From the sequence record MT446417.1: a DNA stretch of 41,043 nt, one strand, 5' to 3'. The notes below the pieces were generated by a model. It did no database searches. It saw nothing but the letters and a program-made list of their open reading frames with translations, and was not told the DNA's origin. This document shows positions 10,006 to 37,538 of this stretch, in pieces. This DNA is from Escherichia virus TH49. Numbering within the stretch: position 1 is the first letter of the stretch; each line of letters starts with the position of its first letter. The translations under genes and the position numbers were made by a program.

Positions 10006-10461
10006 ATGGCCAAAGTTCAATTCACTAAGCGCAAGGAGACCTCTCAGATTTTCGTTCACTGTTCCGCCACCAAGGCAACCATGGACGTAGGTGTCCGTGA
10101 GATTCGCCAGTGGCACAAAGAGCAGGGCTGGCTGGATGTAGGGTATCACTTCATCATCCGTCGTGATGGTACCGTAGAGGCGGGCCGCGACCAAGACGCT
10201 GTTGGTTCACACGTCAAAGGATACAACTCGACTTCTGTCGGCGTGTGTCTGGTGGGAGGTATCGACGCTAAGGGCAACCCTGAGGCAAACTTCACACCAG
10301 CCCAGATGCAGTCTCTGCGTTCGCTGCTGGTAGAACTGAAGGTGCAATACGCTGGGGCTGTGCTGATGGCACACCACGACGTAGCGCCTAAAGCCTGCCC
10401 GAGCTTCAACCTGAAGCGCTGGTGGGAGAAGAACGAACTGGTCACTTCTGACCATGGGTAA
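10006..10461 (+). CDS. gp3.5: Lysozyme / N-acetylmuramoyl-L-alanine amidase (T7 gp3.5 homolog)
   Basis: 151 aa, the same length as T7 lysozyme, with very high identity (IFVHCSATK, VGVREIRQWHKEQGWLDVGYHFII.RDGTVEAGRD, FTPAQMQSLRSLLV, HH.VAPKACPSF.LKRWWEKNELVTSD). Confidence 0.97.
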   Translation: MAKVQFTKRKETSQIFVHCSATKATMDVGVREIRQWHKEQGWLDVGYHFIIRRDGTVEAGRDQDAVGSHVKGYNSTSVGVCLVGGIDAKGNPEANFTPAQMQSLRSLLVELKVQYAGAVLMAHHDVAPKACPSFNLKRWWEKNELVTSDHG

Positions 10462-10462
10462 A

Positions 10463-10485
10463 CATTAGGGCACACTACAGGGAGA
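10463..10485 (+). promoter_or_regulatory. Phage RNAP promoter (phi3.8-like), cattagggcacactacagggaga
   Basis: Consensus with one substitution (CACTACAG); the transcript 5' end forms a GGGAGAC...GTTTCCC hairpin. Confidence 0.75.
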
Positions 10486-10524
10486 CAATCACGTTTCCCT
10501 GTTGTCGCTTGAGGAGATTACTTT

Positions 10525-10640
10525 ATGAACAACTTGAAAGACTTCGACATAATCCCGCTGCTGGCGTATGGCGTGCTCGGACTTTGGGGCGTGACATTCC
10601 TCATAGCGTTCTTCATGTCGTGTGTTGACGGGACGGCTTT

Positions 10641-10644: not shown

Positions 10645-12699
<2,055 letters not shown>

Positions 12700-12797
12700 A
12701 CATGACGAGTGGTGCTCCTGTGAGCACTGCTGTCCAACACTCGAAGCATTCCGCATGAGAATGTATAGAGACTTCAATCGTAAATAGGAGAATCAAA

Positions 12798-13007
12798 ATG
12801 TTTAAACTCATCGAAACTTTAGGCCGTCTGGTCATCGCTCTGTACATCCGTGAAGCCAAGGCACTGGACAAAGCGTCCAAGGTGGAAGCGAAAGCAGCCG
12901 CCAAGCTGGCTAAAGCAGCCGACAAGGCACGTCAGGCATCTCTGGATGCAACCGCAGAGGCAGCTAAAGTTGCCGCTAAAGCCCAGAAACTTAAGGAGTT
13001 CTTCTAA
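12798..13007 (+). CDS. Hypothetical protein (69 aa), gene 4.3 position
   Basis: ATG with TAGGAGA upstream. Ala/Lys-rich, predicted helical product. Confidence 0.55.
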   Translation: MFKLIETLGRLVIALYIREAKALDKASKVEAKAAAKLAKAADKARQASLDATAEAAKVAAKAQKLKEFF

Positions 13008-13318
13008 TGACTACCAAAGCTAAATTCCCCGGCAATACCATTCAGCTGTCCGACACTGTAGACCAGTGGGGTCGCAAGGTTCACATCAACGTCCGCAACG
13101 ACAAGGTGACTCTGGTCTACCGCTGGAAGGCTAAGAGTGATAACCGTGCGCACACTCAGCGTGTTACCCTCGACGATACACAGGCAGCCCGCTTGCTGGC
13201 ATCCGCGGCTGTGGCCGCAACTGTGGCTATCGGTGAGGACAAAGTGCGTGAGGCCATCCTGAGCAAAGAGGTTGGCGAAACGTCCGTTCGTCTGGCTGAA
13301 GCGTCAGAAGTTAAGTGA
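13007..13318 (+). CDS. Hypothetical protein (103 aa), gene 4.5 position
   Basis: ATG overlaps the upstream stop (TAATG); AAGGAG upstream. Confidence 0.55.
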   Translation: MTTKAKFPGNTIQLSDTVDQWGRKVHINVRNDKVTLVYRWKAKSDNRAHTQRVTLDDTQAARLLASAAVAATVAIGEDKVREAILSKEVGETSVRLAEASEVK

Positions 13319-13322
13319 TAAA

Positions 13323-13357
13323 CTCAAGGTCATTACTATATGTAGTGGCCTTTATGA
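13323..13357 (+). promoter_or_regulatory. Putative RNase III processing hairpin (R4.7-like)
   Basis: Third copy of CTCAAGGTCAT...GTGGCCTTTATGA; the loop carries TACTATATGTAGTG. Confidence 0.5.
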
Positions 13358-13390
13358 TTATTACACACAACATATTGAGAGGACATTACC

Positions 13391-13783
13391 ATGCGTAAAC
13401 CTGAAGAGATTCGTAAAGAGATTGAAGAGCTGAACAAAGAGCTGGCTGAGGCCAAGACCTATGAAGCCAAGCGTGATGCTGCCGTTCATATCTTGGAGAA
13501 CCTTGGGTGGACCCACAGTGGTCACAAGGGCTGGCAGAAACCTAAGGATGGACCGAAAGTATCCGACTACAAGGCACCTCTGAAGGCTGGCGAGTTGGCA
13601 ACTTGGGAGGATGGGCACATTAGTGGCACAGTCTATATCCGCAGCGTTGGTGACGAATATGCTCAGGTGTCCCACGTTCGTGGTATTAGCAGGCTGGGCG
13701 CTGACGTACTGAATGGTAGCTTTGCCGTCAAGAAAAGTAAGTTAACCGTGCGTCCACGTGAGTATTTCATCGGGCGTCGTTAA
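13391..13783 (+). CDS. Hypothetical protein (130 aa), gene 4.7 position
   Basis: ATG with GAGAGGA upstream; syntenic with T7 gene 4.7, directly upstream of the DNA polymerase gene. Confidence 0.6.
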   Translation: MRKPEEIRKEIEELNKELAEAKTYEAKRDAAVHILENLGWTHSGHKGWQKPKDGPKVSDYKAPLKAGELATWEDGHISGTVYIRSVGDEYAQVSHVRGISRLGADVLNGSFAVKKSKLTVRPREYFIGRR

Positions 13784-13799
13784 GCAACAGGAGACCACT

Positions 13800-15914
13800 A
13801 TGTTAGTAACCGATATCGAGGCTAATAACCTCTTAGAGAAAGTCACTCAGTTCCACTGTGGGGTCATCTATGACTACAGCACGGACGAGTACGTATCGTA
13901 TCGACCTTGGGACTTCTCAGCGTATCTCGATGCGTTAGAAGCCGAGGTGGCTCGTGGTGGTCTCATCGTATTCCACAACGGTCACAAGTACGATGCCCCA
14001 GTGTTGACCAAGCTGGCCAAGCTCCAGTTAAACCGAGAGTTCCACCTGCCGCGTGAGAACGTAGTGGACACGTTGGTGCTCAGTCGTTTACTGTTTGCGA
14101 ACATTAAGGACTCCGACATGGCCCTGCTGCGTTCCGGTAAGTTACCCGGTAAGCGCTTCGGGTCTCACGCTCTGGAGGCGTGGGGTTACCGCTTAGGTGA
14201 GATGAAGGGTGAATACAAGGATGACTTCAAGAAGCTCCTTGAGGAACAGGGAGAGGACTATGTGGATGGTGCTGAGTGGATTAGCTTCAACGAGCCGATG
14301 ATGGACTATAACGTTCAGGACGTTGTGGTGACCAAGGCTCTCCTTGAGAAGCTGCTGAGCGACAAGCACTACTTCCCAGCTGGTATAGACTTCACGGATG
14401 TCGGCGAGACAACCTTCTGGTCAGAGTCCTGTGAGGCAGTCTGGTTGGAACACCGAGCCGCTTGGTTACTCGCTAAGCAGGAGCGCAACGGGTTCCCATT
14501 CAATACCAAGGCCATCGAGGAACTCTACGTTGAACTAGCTGGTCGCCGTTCTGAACTCCTTCAGACACTCACAGACACTTTCGGAACTTGGTATCAACCC
14601 AAGGGCGGCACTGAGTTATTCCTGCACCCACGAACCGGGAAGCCTCTAGGTAAATACCCACGAGTGAAGTACCCGAAGCAAGGTGCCATCTACAAGAAAC
14701 CCAAGAACAAAGCTCAGCGTGAGGGTCGTGAACCCTGCGAGCTGGACACTCGGGATTACGTGGAGGGCGCTCCGTACACACCAGTAGAGCACGTTGTGTT
14801 CAACCCCAGTAGTCGAGACCACATTGCGCTCAAGCTGAAGGAAGCCGGATGGGTACCTACAGAGTTCACCGATAAAGGTGCACCTAAGGTAGACGACGAG
14901 GTCCTTGAGCATGTACGTGTGGGAGACCCTGACAAGCAGCACTGTATCGACCTCATCAAAGAGTACCTGATGATACAGAAGCGTATCGGTCAGGCGGCTG
15001 AGGGCGACAAGGCGTGGTTACGTTACGTTCAAGAGGATGGTAAAATCCATGGAAGTGTTAACCCTAATGGTGCAGTTACAGGGCGAGCAACGCATAGCTT
15101 CCCTAACCTTGGTCAAGTTCCGGGCGTTCGTTCGCCTTATGGCGAGCCTTGTCGAGCAGCGTTCGGCGCTGAGCATCACTTGGATGGACTTACCGGACAG
15201 CCTTGGGTTCAAGCAGGCATCGACGCCAGCGGACTCGAACTCCGTTGTCTGGCACACTTCATGTCTAAGTACGACGGCGGGGCTTATGCGGATGTCATTC
15301 TCAACGGTGATATCCACACAGTCAACCAAACAGCGGCTGAGTTGCCAACACGTGATAACGCCAAGACATTCATCTACGGTTTCCTCTATGGTGCTGGAGA
15401 CGAAAAGATTGGACAGATTGTGGGAGCAGGTAAGGAACGCGGAAAGGAACTCAAGAAGAAATTCCTTGAGAACACCCCAGCAATCGCAGCGTTGCGTGAA
15501 GGAATCCAGCAGACCCTTGTCGAGTCATCTCGATGGGTTGCCGGAGAGCAGAAGGTCAAGTGGAAACGACGCTGGATTAAGGGACTGGATGGAAGAAAGG
15601 TACACGTTCGGTCACCACATGCCGCGCTCAACACACTACTTCAGTCAGCTGGTGCGCTCATTTGTAAGCTGTGGATTGTCGAGACTGAAGAGTTGCTTCT
15701 CAAAGCCGGCTTAAAGCACGGCTGGGATGGGGACTTTGCGTACATGGCGTGGGTCCACGATGAAATCCAAGTAGCGTGTCGTACCCCAGAGATTGCACAG
15801 CAGGTGATTGACACTGCGCAGCAAGCTATGCGTAACGTGGGAGAACACTTTAAGTTCCGTTGCCGTCTGGATACAGAAGGTAAGATTGGTCCGAACTGGG
15901 CCGTATGTCACTAA
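13800..15914 (+). CDS. gp5: DNA polymerase (T7 gp5 homolog, family A with 3'-5' exonuclease)
   Basis: 704 aa from the ATG at 13800 (AGGAGACCACT upstream), the same length as T7 gp5. Extensive identity (FHCGVIYDYST.EYVSYRP, LIVFHNGHKYD, IYGFLYGAGDEKIGQIVGAGKERGKELKKKFLENTPAIAALRE, MAWVHDEIQV). The track ORF starts 42 nt earlier at an alternative codon. Confidence 0.98.
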   Translation: MLVTDIEANNLLEKVTQFHCGVIYDYSTDEYVSYRPWDFSAYLDALEAEVARGGLIVFHNGHKYDAPVLTKLAKLQLNREFHLPRENVVDTLVLSRLLFANIKDSDMALLRSGKLPGKRFGSHALEAWGYRLGEMKGEYKDDFKKLLEEQGEDYVDGAEWISFNEPMMDYNVQDVVVTKALLEKLLSDKHYFPAGIDFTDVGETTFWSESCEAVWLEHRAAWLLAKQERNGFPFNTKAIEELYVELAGRRSELLQTLTDTFGTWYQPKGGTELFLHPRTGKPLGKYPRVKYPKQGAIYKKPKNKAQREGREPCELDTRDYVEGAPYTPVEHVVFNPSSRDHIALKLKEAGWVPTEFTDKGAPKVDDEVLEHVRVGDPDKQHCIDLIKEYLMIQKRIGQAAEGDKAWLRYVQEDGKIHGSVNPNGAVTGRATHSFPNLGQVPGVRSPYGEPCRAAFGAEHHLDGLTGQPWVQAGIDASGLELRCLAHFMSKYDGGAYADVILNGDIHTVNQTAAELPTRDNAKTFIYGFLYGAGDEKIGQIVGAGKERGKELKKKFLENTPAIAALREGIQQTLVESSRWVAGEQKVKWKRRWIKGLDGRKVHVRSPHAALNTLLQSAGALICKLWIVETEELLLKAGLKHGWDGDFAYMAWVHDEIQVACRTPEIAQQVIDTAQQAMRNVGEHFKFRCRLDTEGKIGPNWAVCH

Positions 15915-32100: not shown

Positions 32101-33074
32101 TTCTGGACACTGCCCGTCAGGGTGTGCTTGGTGATGTGGCTGGTGCGGCCCTAGGCGGTAAGGGTTCCAAGTTTGGCAAAGAGAACTTCCTCAAAGCTGC
32201 CTCTATCAGTCCTGAGCAGTGGAAGGGAATCAAGCAACTTTTTGTCGACCACGCGACTCGTGACGCTAACGGTCAGTTCACCATCAAGGACAAGAAGGCT
32301 TTCAGTCAGGACCCGAGAGCGATGGACCTGTGGCGTCTTGCTGATAAGGTTGCCGACGAGACCATGCTGCGCCCTCACAAGGTATCACAGCAGGATTCCA
32401 AGGCGTACGGTGCTGGTGTCAAGATGGCTATGCAGTTCAAGAACTTTACCATCAAGTCACTAAACGCCAAGTTCATTCGGTCCTTCTACGAGGGCTACAA
32501 GAACAACCGCGCTATCGACATGGCGTTGACCCACGTGTTGTCTCTGGGTATCGCCGGGACTTACTTTGCGATGCAGGCCCACGTGAAGGCTTACGGCCTC
32601 CAAGAGTCTCAGCGCAAGGACTACCTGAAGAAAGCCCTGAACCCGACCATGCTGGGCTACGCAGCGTTGACTCGAAGTTCCCACACTGGTGCCCCGCTGT
32701 CCATCGTCTCGATGATTGCAGGTGCCGCTGGGTTCCAAGACGCCAACATGCTGCGCTCCACCATCTTACCGAAGGAGGAACAGTTCCAGAAGAAAGATGG
32801 GGCGTCAAAGGGCCGCGCAGAGTCGAGCAACCTTGCGGGTAACTTGGGGTCTCAGGTCCCAGCGCTGGGTTACGTAGGGAACGTCATTGCTACCGCTAAG
32901 AACGCTTACGGTGTCGCTACAGCACCTAATAAGCCGACTGAGCGTGACTACATGACTGGCCTGATGAACTCCACAAAGGAGCTTGTGCCTAACGACCCAC
33001 TTACCCAACAGCTAATCATGAAAATCTATGAGGCTAATGGCGTCACCATAAAGCAGCAGCCTAGACCCAACTAA
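29109..33074 (+). CDS. gp16: Internal virion protein D with N-terminal lytic transglycosylase domain (gp16-like)
   Basis: 1321 aa (T7 gp16 is about 1318 aa). The N-terminal lysozyme-like transglycosylase motif (NESSFNP...GIMQF) is typical of gp16. Confidence 0.88.
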
Positions 33075-33095
33075 TTAGGGCACACTATAGGGAGA
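33073..33095 (+). promoter_or_regulatory. Phage RNAP promoter (phi17-like), exact consensus
   Basis: Perfect 23-mer; the transcript begins with a GGGAGACC...GGTTTCCC hairpin. Confidence 0.85.
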
Positions 33096-33136: not shown

Positions 33137-35551
33137 ATGGACCAAGAAATTAAAACAGTCATCCAGTACCCCACAGGGTCCACTGAGTTCGACATCCCGT
33201 TCGACTACCTGTCCCGTAAGTTTGTCCGTGTGTCGCTGGTGTCAGACGACAACCGCAGACTGCTGAGCAACATCACTGAGTACCGCTACGTGTCTAAGAC
33301 CAGAGTGAAGCTCCTTGTGGACACGACCGGGTTCGACCGTGTGGAAATCCGACGGTTAACCTCAGCGTCTGAGCGTATCGTTGACTTCAGCGATGGCTCG
33401 GTTCTCCGCGCTGCTGACCTTAACGTATCTCAAATACAGTCGGCGCATATCGCAGAGGAAGCACGTGACGCGGCACTCATGGCCATGCCACAGGATGACG
33501 CTGGGAACCTTGATGCACGAAATCGGCGCATCGTTCGACTGGCTACGGGTATCGATGGCACTGATGCTGTCAACAAGGACCAGCTGGATAAGACCTTAGG
33601 TGACGCTGGTGGTATCTTGAGCGACATGAAGCAGACAGAGAAGGACGTCATGGACTACATCCAGAACTTCGCTGATGACTCCACTATGGTCAAGGGCGTT
33701 AGCTGGGTGTACAACAACGGGGCAGCGAACGGTGGTGAAACATCCTTCATAATCACTAAGACTGGTCCCGTATTCGCGGTACCTTTCATTGAGATTAACG
33801 GGAGCCGACAGCTTCGGAACTACCACTTCGAGTATGACCCTAAGACTAAGGTCGTCACTCTCGCTAAGCCGCTCCGCAAGGGAGACTTCGTTGTCTGCCA
33901 GACTGCTGAAGGCACGTTGCCAATCATTGAGCTTCTGTCCGGGGCTAATGGTGCCTCTGAGATTGGCGTTAAGGGTGGTGGTACCATTCAGGATGTTATA
34001 GATGCGCCAGCTGTAATCACGGGGCGTGTCAACATTCGAAACCCATACTGGAACGCTCCTCAGGATAATGCAGGAGACCCTGATGCGTCTATCGCCAACT
34101 CCCGAGCAATCAACAAGATGTTCAACTCTGGGGCACTCCATGTGGAGCTTGACGATAAAGCGCGTCACGTTAGCGAGCCTCTACTGTACACTTCCAGCCT
34201 TTCGATTCACGGGGCAGGGAGAAGCGCTCTGAGTCTTATCTGGAATGGCGGTGACCTTCCGATGATTGCTCGTAGCACCTACAGCGATAAGGACACCAGA
34301 GGGGCCAGTAACGTCCGACTAAAGGACCTTCGTGTATCCGACTTAGCACCTACTCGGGTGAAGTATTACACCATCGACCTATTCAACGGTAACAGTAATG
34401 GCCTCACCGATTGCTGGCTGGACTGTCCCGGTAGGTTCAACGCGGATGGTAGCAGGCAGATTACCTCTGACCGGTATGGGGTCGCTATTGGTGTGGCTCG
34501 AAACAGTACCCTTCCTGGTGACGCTGGGTTCGTATCCCACATGCGCTCATCAAGAATCACCAACGGTACACTCATGATTAACGGTACGGATTGGTACGTA
34601 AGCGGCTGTGAGCTTTGGGGGAGCTTCCGAAACAGGGCCGTTGAGATTAGCGGCGGTGGTACAATGGATGGTGGTACCCAGCTGGTTCCGGGCGCTGAGG
34701 CTGGAATCTTCCTGTTTAGCGATGTCGGCTTTAACATTGACACCCTCAAGGTGATTGGTGTGTATTTCGACGGTAGCACCGATAAGACGCTCAAGACTGG
34801 ATGGGGCATTAAGTCAGCTGCTGGAATCGGCCTACAGGGTGCACAGATTCTGGGGTGCAACTTCTGGCACATCAATGAGGGCGGTATCTTCGTTTCCAAG
34901 ATGTATTCCTCAACGGTCAGCTCTAACTTCCGTGATTGCGATAGTGACGATACAGGAGAGGATGACATCGTGTGTGACGATATGTATGGCTCTCGACTCC
35001 TCAGTAACCATCACCGAGGCCCAGCACCAAAGGCCTCCGACAGGGTTAACCTTGGGCGGCCCTTTAAGGTGACTGGACGTGCTGGGTTCCCACTATCAAC
35101 AGTAGGTGGTGAGATAGGTTTCGGTTCGGCATACATTCCGTGTTCCGTATCTGGAAGAGACACTGTGCGAAGCGTTGGGGGTTCCTCCCTTACTTCCTTC
35201 CAGTACTCCTCTCTGCCACCAGCAACCAACAGGGTGGGAGAAGTAATCGTAATGGCTGGTAGAACGTACATCTCAAATGGTACAGGGTGGGTTGATGCAA
35301 CAGGGGCTACCGCAGCGCTAGAGTCACCAACGGATTTAGACACTGCGACAGTCCTTCGGTCATACTACACGTCAGACCTGACCAAGCACACAAACATCCC
35401 TCCGGGAGTGACAGGAGGTGGTGTCCTCGACAACAAGATGGTGACGTCTCAGTACATCACTCAGATTCTAACCGTACTCAAAGCCTCTGGCGGAGTATAC
35501 TCAAGGTCTCTGACACCTTCTGGGTGGGGACAGTGGAGTAAGATAGCATAA
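33137..35551 (+). CDS. gp17: Tail fiber/tailspike protein with T7 gp17-like N-terminal adaptor domain and probable C-terminal capsule depolymerase domain
   Basis: 804 aa. The first 120 aa or so match the recalled T7 gp17 N-terminus (IKTV, FDIPF.YL.RKFV, RRLTS...[26 protein letters not shown]). The remainder is unrelated to the T7 fiber and rich in Gly/Asn/Thr, as in beta-helix tailspikes. Confidence 0.85.
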
Positions 35552-35561
35552 GGAGAACCAC

Positions 35562-37538
35562 ATGTTAGACAATCTTAATCAACCGCGCGGAAGTACCGCA
35601 GGTATACTGGAACCTAACCGCGCTCCAGCGGTAATCACTAGGTCTGTGGCCGACCTCCTCTTAGATGGGGAGGCAGGTCTCCGTAAGAACTTTGGGGCCA
35701 AGGGAGACGGGGTGTCTGACGATACTGCCGCATTCAACGACTGGTGGGCGTGCCTCATGGATGTTAACTACAAGCGAAGACCAGCCGAGGAAGATGAGTC
35801 AACGGTTCGATTCATGCTTCAGAAGGGTCCTCTACTTAAGTTGGAGCACGGTACCTTTGTATATAGCGGTAAGGGGTTAGATATCGCCACTTCGAATGCC
35901 TTCGTGTTCAACGTTGTTGGGGAGAGTGCCTTGTCCACAAAGGTTCTAATCACGGGCGGGTACTACCTATTCGACTTCGCTAATAACCCGGTCCATTCCC
36001 TCCTCGGGGACATGACAATACACGGTGGGCTAGGTGCGGTTCGGTACCGCTCTAAGTCCCGTAACGCCAGTGGGATGCACATATTCAAGGACCTAAGGGT
36101 CTCTCGGTATTCTGAATGTGCTATCAGCCACAACTCTGTGGACATGCCGTACTTCCGTGTGGAGCGTGGGATGTTCTATGGTCGAACCGATATGCAGACC
36201 ATTGGTGTGTGCGTGTCTGGTCTCGCCGCTGGTGGCTACATTAAGGACTGTGTGTTCAGTGATAACCGTTACGGGATTAAACTGGCGGTAGGTGACAATG
36301 GTATCGAGCGCACTGGGCCAGCCACTCCGTTCCTCATTGAGGGTAATGACTTCTACCGAACAGGTAACAGGGCACCTAAGGCATCCTATGACGTATGGGT
36401 AGAGCCGGGTTCAACTGCCCAGAACTCAGGAAGAAGCATTAAGTTCAGCCGCAATAAGTTTGGACAAGAGTTCCTAGTGTACCCGGATTGTCACATTCTG
36501 GTTGCTGACGCCTACCCTACAGGGAGTGGCGCGGGACTGAATGGTGACAGGCACCACACCGAGGAGCAGTCGTCTGGATTCTTCTCTGGCGCACGGTTCG
36601 ATGACAACGACGTTAACTCCGTCAACTCTGGGTATAGCGCTCCGTACATCAAGTCGTTCACCCCAAACATCGGCAACTTACGTATAGCTGACTCATATGA
36701 TAACGGGATGCCCTCGCGGTTCATTGAGTTCTCCGGTGGAATCCTTCAGTCGCAGGTTAATAACCTCACTCGTACAAACGTCCTTGACATTAGTCACTGC
36801 GTGTCCCTACAGAAAGGGGTTGAGCCATCACTACTGTCTAACCTTAACGATGTCATCAAGGTTGTAGACCCGCTACAGTTACTTGCAGGTCATCCACAAT
36901 CTACGGCAATCCCTACAGGTAACCAGCACGTTGACTTCACGAGTGTGTATGCTGGGCCTACTAGCTCCATAGCTGTGACAGGTGCATCCCGTACTGCGAT
37001 AAACAACTCCTACGGTGGTATTACGGAGGCCGCAGAGATTACCCTGAGTTCTCCAGACGGTCGGGCTGTTATTACCGCACCCGGTGGGGTTGCTGGGCGT
37101 CAGCACTGGATTGACTTCGAAGTTAGACGCGGGTCGACGAACCCTGTGAGGTCTGTAATCGTGGAGATACTTGACCAGTCAGGGGTATCCTTACAATTGC
37201 GTAGGGTTATCCTTATGGACTCGGCCCTTCGGTGGCAGAAGGTGGTACTGCCGTATGTACCAAACGAGTCAGGTAATATCGTGATTAGGTTTAGGTCTGG
37301 CACCTTCGTTGAGGGGACTGCGACAACATTTGCGGTAGGTAACGCAAACATCTACCAGAACCCTACTCCGATAAACACGGGCCACAACAGCGGACTGTCC
37401 ATGCGCTGGAGTACACAACATGAGGTGCGTGGGTCTCGGCACGTTTGGGTGGACTCCTTAGGGAACTTCCGCTCGAAGAACGGCCAGCCTACGTCAGAGT
37501 CTGACGGTGTAATCATTAGTGCCAACCCATCACCATAA
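35562..37538 (+). CDS. Second receptor-binding protein: putative tailspike/capsule depolymerase without a gp17-type anchor domain
   Basis: 658 aa; ATG with AAGGAGA upstream. The motif FGAKGDGVSDDTAAF is typical of pectate-lyase-like right-handed beta-helix tailspikes. The position directly after gp17 matches the two-depolymerase layout of KP32-like Klebsiella phages. Confidence 0.72.
   Translation: MLDNLNQPRGSTAGILEPNRAPAVITRSVADLLLDGEAGLRKNFGAKGDGVSDDTAAFNDWWACLMDVNYKRRPAEEDESTVRFMLQKGPLLKLEHGTFVYSGKGLDIATSNAFVFNVVGESALSTKVLITGGYYLFDFANNPVHSLLGDMTIHGGLGAVRYRSKSRNASGMHIFKDLRVSRYSECAISHNSVDMPYFRVERGMFYGRTDMQTIGVCVSGLAAGGYIKDCVFSDNRYGIKLAVGDNGIERTGPATPFLIEGNDFYRTGNRAPKASYDVWVEPGSTAQNSGRSIKFSRNKFGQEFLVYPDCHILVADAYPTGSGAGLNGDRHHTEEQSSGFFSGARFDDNDVNSVNSGYSAPYIKSFTPNIGNLRIADSYDNGMPSRFIEFSGGILQSQVNNLTRTNVLDISHCVSLQKGVEPSLLSNLNDVIKVVDPLQLLAGHPQSTAIPTGNQHVDFTSVYAGPTSSIAVTGASRTAINNSYGGITEAAEITLSSPDGRAVITAPGGVAGRQHWIDFEVRRGSTNPVRSVIVEILDQSGVSLQLRRVILMDSALRWQKVVLPYVPNESGNIVIRFRSGTFVEGTATTFAVGNANIYQNPTPINTGHNSGLSMRWSTQHEVRGSRHVWVDSLGNFRSKNGQPTSESDGVIISANPSP

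What the first reader, a model, noticed from the sequence alone, without database searches (positions are those of the whole stretch)
33137..37538. Two consecutive receptor-binding proteins: anchored tail fiber/depolymerase plus a second anchor-less tailspike
The first gene has the T7 gp17 N-terminal adaptor followed by an unrelated C-terminal region. The second, 11 nt downstream, has no gp17 adaptor but carries a pectate-lyase-like FGAKGDGVSDDTAAF motif near its N-terminus. This matches the branched dual-depolymerase arrangement known in KP32-like Klebsiella phages, where the second enzyme docks on the first. It implies recognition of two capsule or O-antigen types; the C-terminal enzymatic domains are typically the most mosaic part of these genomes and may be new specificities.
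Basis: partly seen in the sequence, partly recalled or inferred. Interest (0 to 1): 0.55.

Follow-up and report, generated by a model that had tools for sequence, protein, structure and literature searches.

The report
Branched two-tailspike set of a Klebsiella-type podophage
This T7-like phage, isolated on E. coli, carries the standard KP32-type pair of receptor-binding tailspikes, one anchored to the tail and one docked on the first; the layout is well known, and each enzyme part is 65-69% identical to an enzyme shown to digest Klebsiella capsule K32 or KL127.

Summary
ORF1 (33137-35551, 804 aa) has a T7 gp17-type anchor, then a conserved branching domain, then a beta-helix module. ORF2 (35562-37538, 658 aa) starts 10 nt after ORF1's stop and carries FGAKGDGVSDDTAAF at residues 44-58.

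One correction: ORF2 is not anchor-less. Its first ~20-24 residues (MLDNLNQPRGSTAGIL...) are the conserved docking peptide of KP32-type second receptor-binding proteins. Published KP32 engineering shows this peptide and the branching domain of the first protein are both required to mount the second protein.

The window matches phages TH49/TH50 (isolated on E. coli PS40, deposited unannotated). Klebsiella phage MT09 is 97% identical. So this is a new member of a known, structurally solved arrangement.

Specificities are not tested here. ORF1's module is 65% identical to a K32-active prophage enzyme and ORF2's is 69% identical to a KL127-active one (over the parts of those sequences available).

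Outside the window there are two side findings. The same two modules are alternative ends of one tail-fibre gene flipped by a Gin-type invertase in Klebsiella/Raoultella prophages. Signal-peptide versions of both are encoded inside capsule-synthesis loci.

The parts
33073..33095 (+). Phage RNA-polymerase promoter (phi17 type) that drives both tailspike genes. It overlaps the stop codon of the upstream gp16-like gene.
   Evidence: 22 of 23 bases match the annotated phi17 promoters of K11 and K30 at the same position. The core TTAGGGCACACTATAGGGA occurs 12 times in the window with up to 3 mismatches, all on the + strand, against 0.01 expected.
33137..35551 (+). RBP1: primary tailspike gene (804 aa), made of anchor, branching domain and enzymatic module.
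   Evidence: ORF list. The Shine-Dalgarno sequence AAGGAGG lies 5 nt upstream of the ATG. 100% identical to TH50 and 97.4% to MT09 at DNA level across 33137-37538.
33137..33598 (+). RBP1 residues 1-154: T7 gp17-type anchor that attaches the fibre to the tail.
   Evidence: Pfam PF03906, E 1.2e-37. Sequence matches to solved T7 gp17 N-terminal structures (7boz, 8e4g, 8dsp; E ~1e-35).
33614..34003 (+). RBP1 residues ~160-289: branching domain, the inferred docking platform for RBP2.
   Evidence: Residues 1-289 are 72-78% identical to KP32 gp37, K11 gp17 and K30 gp17. ORF1 residues 1-346 match solved Kp9 type I fibre gp42, 7xy1 (E 5.6e-142). Residues ~185-258 match N-terminal domains of other tailspike and fibre chains (9d80, 7rej). 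R224, a predicted contact residue in KP32, is invariant.
34004..35548 (+). RBP1 residues 290-804: exchangeable enzymatic module, a right-handed beta-helix (about 313-692) followed by a C-terminal knob-like domain (about 693-804).
   Evidence: AlphaFold model pLDDT 91.4. Foldseek hits to Dettilon, APK16, CBA120 TSP3 and HK620 tailspikes, and a 112-column match to the R-pyocin fibre C-terminal fragment. 65% identical over 389 aligned residues to the K32-active enzyme 914_77. The module boundary is fixed by P0059, where the same module follows a docking peptide.
35550..35556 (+). Shine-Dalgarno sequence AAGGAGA of RBP2, overlapping the RBP1 stop codon. The two genes are co-transcribed.
   Evidence: Sequence read directly. 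No promoter or credible terminator lies between the two genes.
35562..37538 (+). RBP2: secondary tailspike gene (658 aa).
   Evidence: ORF list. 99.5% amino-acid identity to MT09. Followed directly by the holin gene, as in KP32, K11 and K30.
35562..35633 (+). RBP2 residues 1-24: conserved docking peptide MLDNLNQPRGSTAGILEPNRAPAV.
   Evidence: Aligns with the N-termini of KP32 gp38, the K11 tail spike protein (ASC_0043), K30 gp17.3 and KP32i196 gp36. tblastn finds it in 188 phage records. Disordered in the monomer model: residues 1-22 have pLDDT below 50. Homologues with other adaptors begin to align only at residue 10-20.
35691..35735 (+). FGAKGDGVSDDTAAF motif (residues 44-58), at the N-terminal end of the predicted beta-helix region.
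   Evidence: Partial PF12708 match at residues 42-60, 23.6 bits, below the cutoff of 27. Weak sequence hits to solved pectin-lyase-like proteins 7b7a and 8ikx.
35634..36896 (+). RBP2 residues 25-445: right-handed beta-helix enzymatic module.
   Evidence: Model pLDDT 85.8. Foldseek hits to K2-2 TSP, Depo32, Kp7 type II fibre gp52, DpK2 and CBA120 TSP4 (E 1e-8 to 1e-7). 69% identical over 264 aligned residues to the KL127-active enzyme 319_37.
36897..37535 (+). RBP2 residues 446-658: C-terminal beta-sandwich domains resembling carbohydrate-binding modules.
   Evidence: Foldseek matches to CBM4, CBM6 and CBM29 modules (TM on target 0.5-0.7). DepoCatalog classes the homologue 319_37 as 'classical depolymerase - double C-domain'.

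Best explanation
The region is the receptor-binding cassette of a Przondovirus (KP32/K11/K30-like, T7-type podophage). A phi17-type phage promoter transcribes both genes as one unit. RBP1 trimers attach to the tail through the gp17-type anchor (residues 1-154). They present a branching domain (about 160-289) and end in a beta-helix polysaccharide-degrading module (290-804). RBP2 has no tail anchor. Its first ~24 residues dock onto the RBP1 branching domain, so each fibre position would carry two enzymes; its residues 25-658 form a second, unrelated beta-helix enzyme with C-terminal carbohydrate-binding-like domains. Each enzyme most likely recognises and cleaves a different Klebsiella-type capsular polysaccharide: K32-like for RBP1 and KL127-like for RBP2. 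This would give the virion two alternative entry routes. SHOWN here: the genes, domains, module boundaries, promoter, predicted folds and homologies. TAKEN FROM published KP32 work: that this peptide and domain pair mounts RBP2. INFERRED: enzymatic activity, the actual substrates, and which protein serves the E. coli isolation host (weakly, RBP2).
For: Anchor. Branching domain: 72-78% identity to KP32, K11 and K30 over residues 1-289, and E 5.6e-142 to solved Kp9 gp42. Docking peptide: shared with KP32 gp38, the K11 tail spike protein and K30 gp17.3, and present in 188 phage records. Gene order and promoter are identical to annotated relatives. KP32 experiments: deleting RBP2 residues 1-29, or using an RBP1 without a branching domain, abolishes growth on the RBP2 host, and a non-cognate K11 branching domain still works (PMC13352976). 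Beta-helix tailspike folds are predicted for both modules. Experimentally active homologues exist: 914_77 on K32 (65% identity) and 319_37 on KL127 (69% identity). In prophages the two module types are mutually exclusive alternatives on one fibre gene, flipped by a Gin-type invertase. This implies each alone is a sufficient receptor-binding end. MT09, with 97.5% and 99.5% identical proteins, is recorded with K. pneumoniae as host, while TH49/TH50 were isolated on E. coli. ORF2's module has distant relatives in 4 of 5,426 complete E. coli genomes and in coliphages; ORF1's has none.
Against: No activity, virion composition or host-range data exist for this phage; the genome announcement has none. 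Of the four KP32 gp37 residues predicted in silico to contact RBP2, only R224 is kept here: position 227 is R, 261 is L and 275 is E. In the peptide, L2, D3 and N6 are kept and F5 is L. The identities to the characterised enzymes were computed on only the first 399 residues held in the supplement. In that literature sequence similarity does not reliably predict specificity. Foldseek TM-scores are low (0.22-0.49), so the fold class is supported but no catalytic mechanism or residues can be assigned. Neither Klebsiella-type capsule locus examined occurs in any complete E. coli genome, so the E. coli receptor is unexplained.
Confidence: 0.8

Rival explanations
1. The two enzymes are not alternative host keys but work together on one host. 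For example, one strips the capsule and the other the O-antigen, or one debranches and the other cleaves the backbone of the same polymer.
For: The same two module families recur together in five contexts: TH49/TH50/MT09, adjacent genes in jumbo phage YC1, and Gin segments in two prophage backgrounds. Signal-peptide homologues of both lie in similar wbaP, pyruvyltransferase and rml capsule loci.
Against: In the invertible prophage segments only one module can be fused to the fibre gene at a time, so each must suffice alone. Characterised homologues act on different K-types, K32 and KL127. Either module also occurs without the other: L010, L015 and L016, and among the 13 phage records with a near-full-length ORF2-like gene only TH50, MT09 and YC1 also have the ORF1C-like module.
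Confidence: 0.12
2. One or both proteins are binding-only fibres, or carry a modifying activity such as an esterase, rather than being depolymerases.
For: The only Pfam enzymatic hit is a 19-residue sub-threshold match. NCBIfam gives nothing. No catalytic residues are known even for the characterised homologues; the mechanism columns in DepoCatalog are empty. Capsule modification is reported as common among prophage RBPs.
Against: Homologues at 65-69% identity are listed in DepoCatalog, a catalogue of recombinantly produced, activity-tested depolymerases, with K-type targets K32 and KL127. Both models are long beta-helices of the tailspike depolymerase type, not SGNH folds.
Confidence: 0.06
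3. ORF2 protein is made but not mounted on the virion. It would be released at lysis as a free enzyme.
For: Free, non-incorporated RBP2 giving halos was seen in an engineered KP32 that lacked the branching domain. Three of the four in-silico predicted RBP1 contact residues differ here.
Against: The docking peptide and the branching domain are both intact and conserved. A non-cognate branching domain (K11, which also lacks two of those residues) still mounts KP32 RBP2.
Confidence: 0.04

Closest known systems
Klebsiella phage KP32 gp37/gp38 (Przondovirus dual-RBP system; Latka et al., PMC13352976)
   Same: Same genus-level genome context and gene order. RBP1 has anchor and branching domain (72% identity over residues 1-289). 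RBP2 begins with the conserved peptide (MLDNFNQPKGSTIGVL in KP32, MLDNLNQPRGSTAGIL here). The holin gene follows.
   Different: Both enzymatic modules are unrelated to KP32's, which target K3 and K21/KL163. RBP1 here ends in a pyocin-knob-like domain. No C-terminal chaperone or peptidase family (as described for KP32 gp37) was detected by Pfam. Predicted contact residues V227, H261 and R275 are not kept.
Solved Klebsiella podophage fibres: Kp9 type I fibre gp42 (7xy1), Kp7 type I gp51 (7y5s) and Kp7 type II gp52 (7xyc)
   Same: ORF1 residues 1-346 match 7xy1 at E 5.6e-142. The ORF2 model matches the Kp7 type II fibre at Foldseek E 1e-7. The type I / type II nomenclature corresponds to the same two-fibre architecture.
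   Different: Only the N-terminal structural part is closely related. The catalytic parts share fold class only (about 10-12% identity).
Escherichia phage K30 gp17 / gp17.3
   Same: A Przondovirus named as an Escherichia phage (no host is written in the record). It has the closest annotated RBP1 N-terminus (78% over residues 1-289), the same docking peptide and the same phiP17 promoter.
   Different: Different enzymatic modules in both genes.
DepoCatalog prophage depolymerases 914_77 (K32) and 319_37 (KL127) (PMC13385381; PMC13123978)
   Same: They belong to the same module families as ORF1 residues 290-804 (65% identity) and ORF2 residues 25-658 (69% identity). Both are listed with experimentally determined K-type targets.
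   Different: They come from prophages and have other or no N-terminal adaptors. Identity was measured on truncated sequences. Substrate identity with the TH49 proteins is untested.
Phage Mu G segment / P1 C segment (Gin/Cin invertible tail-fibre switches)
   Same: Klebsiella and Raoultella prophages carry homologues of these two modules as inverted alternatives. The layout is: constant N-terminus, module A, a small gene, an inverted small gene, inverted module B, then a recombinase matching solved DNA-invertase chains 4m6f/3uj3 at E 7e-70 (Mu Gin, from memory). Inverted repeats of 42-44 nt lie at the junctions, and both orientations are seen in databases.
   Different: The window itself has no invertase, no inverted repeats of this kind and none of the small accessory genes. 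It would display both modules at once instead of alternately.

Membership tests
KP32-type (Przondovirus) branched dual-RBP system | RBP1 begins with a T7 gp17-like anchor domain | tested here: met
   PF03906 at residues 1-154, E 1.2e-37. Sequence matches to solved T7 gp17 N-terminal chains.
KP32-type (Przondovirus) branched dual-RBP system | RBP1 has a branching domain between the anchor and the enzymatic domain | tested here: met
   72-78% identity to KP32 gp37, K11 gp17 and K30 gp17 over residues 1-289. E 5.6e-142 to solved Kp9 gp42 over residues 1-346. Direct comparison with T4 gp10 was not run.
KP32-type (Przondovirus) branched dual-RBP system | RBP2 lacks the anchor and begins with the conserved docking peptide | tested here: met
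   Q7, P8, G10, S11, T12 and G14 are invariant across eight sequences. The peptide is found in 188 phage records including KP32 gp38. No PF03906 hit in ORF2.
KP32-type (Przondovirus) branched dual-RBP system | Gene order: gp16, phi17 promoter, RBP1, RBP2, holin (gp17.5), small terminase | tested here: met
   ORFs compared with the annotations of K30, KP32i196, KP32 and K11. Promoter alignment.
KP32-type (Przondovirus) branched dual-RBP system | Residues predicted to form the RBP1-RBP2 interface in KP32 (gp37 R224, V227, H261, R275; gp38 L2, D3, F5, N6) | tested here: inconclusive
   R224, L2, D3 and N6 are kept. Positions 227, 261 and 275 differ, and F5 is L. The residues come from in-silico modelling, and H261 and R275 are also absent in K11, whose domain is functional.
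KP32-type (Przondovirus) branched dual-RBP system | RBP2 is physically incorporated into the virion through RBP1 | not testable with these tools
   Needs virion proteomics, cryo-EM or peptide-deletion genetics. Only monomer structure prediction was available.
Beta-helix (pectate-lyase-like) tailspike depolymerases | Right-handed parallel beta-helix central domain | tested here: met
   High-confidence models. Top Foldseek hits have probability 1.0 and are tailspikes or depolymerases: K2-2 TSP, Depo32, DpK2, Dettilon, APK16, CBA120 TSP2-4 and HK620. TM-scores are modest (0.22-0.49).
Beta-helix (pectate-lyase-like) tailspike depolymerases | Curated family-model match (Pfam PF12708 / PF13229) above threshold | tested here: not met
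   ORF2 scores 23.6 bits on PF12708 against a cutoff of 27, over 19 residues only. ORF1 has no such hit. NCBIfam finds nothing.
Beta-helix (pectate-lyase-like) tailspike depolymerases | Demonstrated polysaccharide-degrading activity and known catalytic residues | not testable with these tools
   Homologues are listed with K32 and KL127 as targets, but mechanism and catalytic residues are blank in DepoCatalog.
Gin/Hin-type invertible tail-fibre switch | Serine invertase gene plus inverted crossover sites flanking alternative fibre ends | tested here: not met
   Met in prophage loci L004, L005, L011-L014, L017 and L018. The window has no hit to the invertase or to the small accessory genes, so the window is not a member.

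The most novel reading that the evidence does not exclude
The two enzymatic modules of this phage are not a random mosaic pair. They form a recurrent linked pair of capsule specificities (K32-like and KL127-like) that Klebsiella/Raoultella phages deploy in two ways. They are used simultaneously on the branched podophage fibre here and as adjacent genes in jumbo phage YC1. They are used alternately in siphovirus-like prophages, where a Gin-type invertase flips one fibre gene between them. Both module families also have signal-peptide-bearing relatives encoded inside host capsule-synthesis loci, immediately upstream of gnd. If the pairing is selected, it would indicate that host populations move between these two capsule types and that phages of unrelated architecture track that switch with the same two keys. 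It could also explain why some prophage depolymerases act on a K-type other than their host's.
Probability: 0.35. Interest if true: 0.6.

Novelty: new member of a known kind. Interest (0 to 1): 0.36.

Why it matters
The cassette itself adds one more example to a well-described and structurally solved architecture, so it changes little conceptually. Its practical value is threefold. First, it annotates two deposited but unannotated genomes (TH49/TH50). Second, it gives testable substrate guesses, K32 and KL127, for two tailspikes of a Klebsiella-type phage that grows on E. coli. Third, it defines exact module boundaries (RBP1 residue 289/290; RBP2 residue ~24/25) that natural recombination has used and that can be used for fibre engineering. 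The side findings could matter more. A Gin-flipped depolymerase pair in Klebsiella prophages, and depolymerase-like genes inside capsule loci, bear on how capsule specificity is predicted from prophage genomes.

Tried and rejected
- **PDB sequence search with ORF2:** only sub-significant 20-residue motif hits.
- **NCBIfam:** no family for either protein.
- **PHROGs for ORF2:** only marginal hits, E 7e-4 and 2e-3.
- **Genome-contig scan with the ORF2 family alignment:** only two loci, a Methylotenera MAG contig and a Paenibacillus homologue. This was useless for testing co-occurrence, so I used exact-protein contig look-ups instead.
- **Literature:** a search for 'type I/type II tail fiber' found nothing. 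DepoCatalog's main text mentions neither K32 nor KL127; the information was only in its Supplementary Dataset 3.
- **Naming the capsule loci that encode the signal-peptide homologues:** not possible. Pan et al. 2015 list 'tail fiber' cps genes only for K30/K69, K34 and K36, and a unique hypothetical protein for K32. Wyres et al. 2016 mention none.
- **Klebsiella-type capsule locus in E. coli as an explanation of the host:** neither locus (L021, L022) has a megablast match in 5,426 complete E. coli genomes. That idea is unsupported for these particular loci.
- **Strict co-inheritance of the two modules as one unit:** rejected. Identities to the window do not run in parallel: L011 58% and 66%, L004 58% and 52%, YC1 45% and 57%.
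- **Sigma-70 promoter and terminator scans:** no more hits than in shuffled sequence.


Full report
**Origin of the window**

The region 33137-37538 is 100% identical to Escherichia virus TH50 (MT446418) and 97.4% identical to Klebsiella phage MT09 (PV610698). Both records are unannotated. The window length, 41,043 bp, equals the published genome size of TH49, the sibling of TH50. Both were isolated from sewage on E. coli strain PS40. The genome announcement contains no analysis of tail proteins.

More than 200 Klebsiella przondoviruses share only the first ~760 nt of the region. This is the usual pattern of a conserved structural N-terminus followed by a mosaic receptor-binding part.

**Observation check**

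Two + strand ORFs lie exactly as described: 33137-35551 (804 aa) and 35562-37538 (658 aa).

- Ten nucleotides separate them. The Shine-Dalgarno sequence of the second gene overlaps the stop codon of the first.
- ORF1 residues 1-154 are a T7 gp17-type anchor (PF03906, E 1.2e-37).
- ORF2 carries FGAKGDGVSDDTAAF at residues 44-58. The corresponding Pfam model (PF12708) matches only those 19 residues and falls below its curated threshold.
- Upstream of ORF1, overlapping the stop codon of the gp16-like gene, is a 23-nt phage RNA-polymerase promoter (33073-33095). It matches the annotated phi17 promoters of K11 and K30 at 22 of 23 bases.
- The promoter core occurs 12 times in the window, all on the + strand, against 0.01 expected.
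- There is no promoter or convincing terminator between the two genes.
- Downstream come the holin, small terminase, Rz-like spanin and large terminase genes, as in KP32, K11 and K30.

**Anatomy of RBP1**

Alignment with KP32 gp37, K11 gp17, K30 gp17 and KP32i196 gp35 is nearly gap-free, with 72-78% identity, up to residue ~289 (...[11 protein letters not shown]). It then breaks down completely. The conserved part therefore holds more than the anchor. Residues ~160-289 correspond to the branching domain defined in KP32.

ORF1 residues 1-346 match the solved Kp9 type I tail fiber gp42 (7xy1) at E 5.6e-142.

Residues 290-804 model confidently (pLDDT 91.4) as a right-handed beta-helix.

- The best Foldseek matches are phage tailspikes: Dettilon, APK16 gp47, CBA120 TSP3 and HK620.
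- The last ~110 residues resemble the R-pyocin fibre C-terminal fragment.

**Anatomy of RBP2**

ORF2 has no gp17 adaptor, but it is not anchor-less. Its first ~20 residues, MLDNLNQPRGSTAGILEPNR, align with the N-termini of KP32 gp38, the K11 tail spike protein (ASC_0043), K30 gp17.3 and KP32i196 gp36. A tblastn search with the peptide finds it in 188 phage records, essentially all Klebsiella przondoviruses.

In the AlphaFold model (pLDDT 85.8) residues 1-22 are disordered. Residues ~90-440 form a beta-helix and the C-terminus forms beta-sandwich domains.

- Foldseek's best hits are Klebsiella depolymerases (K2-2 TSP, Depo32, DpK2), the Kp7 type II tail fiber gp52 and CBA120 TSP4.
- The C-terminal part matches CBM4/6/29-type modules.
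- Homologues in other phage genera start to align only at residue 10-20, directly after the peptide. Examples are Raoultella phage RP180, Gamaleyavirus, Vectrevirus and jumbo phage YC1.

**Mechanism**

Latka et al. 2026 (PMC13352976) showed the following in phage KP32.

- Deleting the first 29 residues of RBP2 abolishes growth on the RBP2-specific host.
- Replacing RBP1 by a protein without a branching domain has the same effect.
- A non-cognate K11 branching domain still mounts KP32 RBP2.

The TH49 proteins have both elements, so the same docking mechanism is the best-supported explanation.

There is one caveat. Of four gp37 residues predicted in silico to contact RBP2, only R224 is conserved here. 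Positions 227, 261 and 275 differ. In the peptide, L2, D3 and N6 are kept and F5 is L, as in K11 and K30. H261 and R275 are also absent in K11, whose branching domain works, so I treat this test as inconclusive rather than negative.

**What the enzymes may cut**

Neither module matched any solved PDB chain significantly at the sequence level. Both belong to sizeable uncharacterised families found mainly in Klebsiella and Raoultella, with 72 and 54 database clusters respectively.

DepoCatalog (PMC13385381, Supplementary Dataset 3) contains one tested member of each family.

| Enzyme | Length and source | Listed target | Identity to the window protein |
|---|---|---|---|
| 914_77 | 536 aa, siphovirus prophage | K32 | 65% to ORF1 over 389 aligned residues |
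| 319_37 | 794 aa, prophage | KL127 | 69% to ORF2 over 264 aligned residues |

Only the first 399 residues of each enzyme are held in the supplement. The source study lists KL32 and KL127 among the 11 K-types for which active prophage enzymes were obtained. It also warns that sequence similarity does not reliably predict specificity.

K32-like and KL127-like substrates are therefore good first guesses, not conclusions. The mechanism (hydrolase or lyase) is unknown even for the tested homologues.

**The E. coli host**

MT09, whose two proteins are 97.5% and 99.5% identical to TH50's, is recorded with K. pneumoniae as host.

E. coli strains with Klebsiella-like group 1 capsules are known hosts of phages with Klebsiella-type tailspikes, for example E. 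coli HS with a K47-like capsule. However, the two capsule loci I could link to these module families have no match in 5,426 complete E. coli genomes.

ORF2's module has distant relatives in coliphages (IME11, 24-32N). It also has them in 4 complete E. coli genomes, mostly under prophage genes annotated as phage head-binding domain-containing proteins. ORF1's module has none. I infer weakly that RBP2 serves the E. coli host.

**Beyond the window: a recurrent pair**

Jumbo phage YC1 encodes homologues of both modules in adjacent genes.

A Raoultella prophage (L004) has the following layout:

1. An 814-aa ORF2-like gene.
2. An 83-aa gene.
3. An inverted 88-aa gene.
4. An inverted 537-aa gene that is 57% identical to ORF1 residues 281-804.
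5. A resolvase-family gene.

That recombinase matches the solved DNA-invertase chains 4m6f and 3uj3 over its full length at E 7e-70. From memory these are Mu Gin.

A 42-nt inverted repeat lies at codon ~140 of the fibre gene and again just upstream of the inverted ORF. Its core is TTCGCCAAAACCTGGGTTCAGGCGAA, which from memory resembles gix/hix crossover sites.

K. pneumoniae loci L011-L014 show the same segment in the opposite orientation, with repeats at the same positions. There the ORF1C-like module is fused and the ORF2-like module is inverted.

In the protein database the same two constant N-termini (MAEVPLPTPTK... and MSTYKTKNPLGS...) are found fused to either module. About 13 different adaptor types carry both families.

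P0072, a database protein with the same MSMTTI start and 536-aa length as the K32-active 914_77, sits in the unfused position next to the invertase. The source paper never mentions inversion.

Only one module can be expressed per orientation. The two are therefore alternatives, which argues that in TH49 they are two independent keys rather than two steps on one substrate.

The pairing holds at family level only. Identities do not co-vary, and each module also occurs alone.

**Beyond the window: natural position swap**

In przondovirus contig L010 the ORF1C-like module sits behind the docking peptide as RBP2, next to a different RBP1. Its junction reads MLDKLNQPKGSTIGVLRDGRTIQETFDA|[10 protein letters not shown]... 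This is the natural counterpart of the engineered relocation of RBPs in PMC13352976.

**Beyond the window: capsule-locus homologues**

Versions of both modules with an N-terminal RRxF signal-like sequence are encoded as the last variable gene of Klebsiella/Raoultella capsule loci, directly upstream of gnd.

- **ORF2-like (P0045, P0042):** wbaP, GT2, wzy, an unassigned gene, pyruvyltransferase, GT1, [ORF2-like], gnd, rmlBADC, ugd.
- **ORF1C-like (P0116):** wbaP, GT2, an unassigned gene, pyruvyltransferase, wzy-like, GT2, WbsX, [ORF1C-like], gnd, rmlB.

Pan et al. 2015 recorded 'tail fiber' genes in a few reference cps loci (K30/K69, K34, K36), so the phenomenon is annotated but unexplored. I could not assign K-types to these loci.

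**Verdict**

The cassette is a new member of a known, mechanistically and structurally characterised kind. Its specificities are unproven but have close tested relatives. Interest is moderate to low for the cassette itself. The invertase-linked pairing and the capsule-locus homologues are the more unusual leads, and they lie outside the window.

Noticed in passing
L004:8001-13268; L011:8001-13263; also L005, L012-L014, L017, L018: Klebsiella and Raoultella prophages carry homologues of the window's two enzymatic modules as inverted alternatives of one tail-fibre gene, next to a Gin-type DNA invertase (E 7e-70 to 4m6f/3uj3). Inverted repeats of 42-44 nt lie at the junctions, and both orientations are present in public assemblies. 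The study that tested the K32-active enzyme 914_77 does not mention inversion. P0072, which has the same MSMTTI start and 536-aa length, sits in the unfused position beside the invertase.
   Followed up: yes
L019:6001-8055; L022:7001-9076; L021:7001-8959: Homologues of both modules with an N-terminal RRxF signal-like sequence are encoded inside capsule-synthesis loci of K. variicola, R. ornithinolytica and K. quasipneumoniae. They are the last variable gene, immediately upstream of gnd, in wbaP / pyruvyltransferase / rml-type loci. The K-types of these loci were not determined.
   Followed up: partly
L004:10455-10706 (+) and 10738-11004 (-); L011:10088-10354 and 10387-10638; L006:2586-2813: In prophages each module is followed by its own small gene: 83 aa after the ORF2-like module and 88 aa after the ORF1C-like module. 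Neither has a Pfam hit. Neither has a homologue in the window, so the podophage versions apparently fold without them.
   Followed up: partly
L010:720-5196: A przondovirus-like contig carries the ORF1C-like module in the second-RBP position, behind the docking peptide and next to a different 942-aa RBP1. This is a natural relocation of a module between the RBP1 and RBP2 positions.
   Followed up: yes
L003:3540-7560 (Klebsiella jumbo phage YC1): YC1 encodes homologues of both modules in adjacent genes (57% and 45% identity), with related short N-termini. This is a third architecture in which the two families co-occur.
   Followed up: partly
window 33970-34003 and 35622-35660; compare L008, L001, P0059: A similar short motif, G-x-T-[IV]-Q-[DE]-x-x-D, precedes the exchange point in RBP1s (after the branching domain) and in most RBP2s (after the docking peptide). 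ORF2 of the window has a more divergent RSVADLLLD there. It may be a shared recombination joint.
   Followed up: no
window 262, 5535, 6182, 6709, 8793, 10465, 17814, 20233, 21247, 25788, 33075, 40392 (+ strand): Twelve copies of the phage RNA-polymerase promoter core TTAGGGCACACTATAGGGA (0-2 mismatches), all on the + strand, against 0.01 expected by chance.
   Followed up: partly
whole window: The window length, 41,043 bp, equals the published size of TH49 (MT446417). Its sibling TH50 (41,778 bp) holds the same region at 11236-15637, so that record is permuted relative to the window. The TH50 and MT09 records carry no annotation.
   Followed up: partly
L006 (Methylotenera MAG contig, 3.5 kb) and L007:10001-11812 (Paenibacillus agaridevorans T-3040): An ORF2-like gene (56% identity) followed by an 83-aa-gene homologue sits on a short contig binned as Methylotenera; this is possibly a mis-binned phage fragment. 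A 35%-identical homologue exists in a Paenibacillus genome.
   Followed up: no
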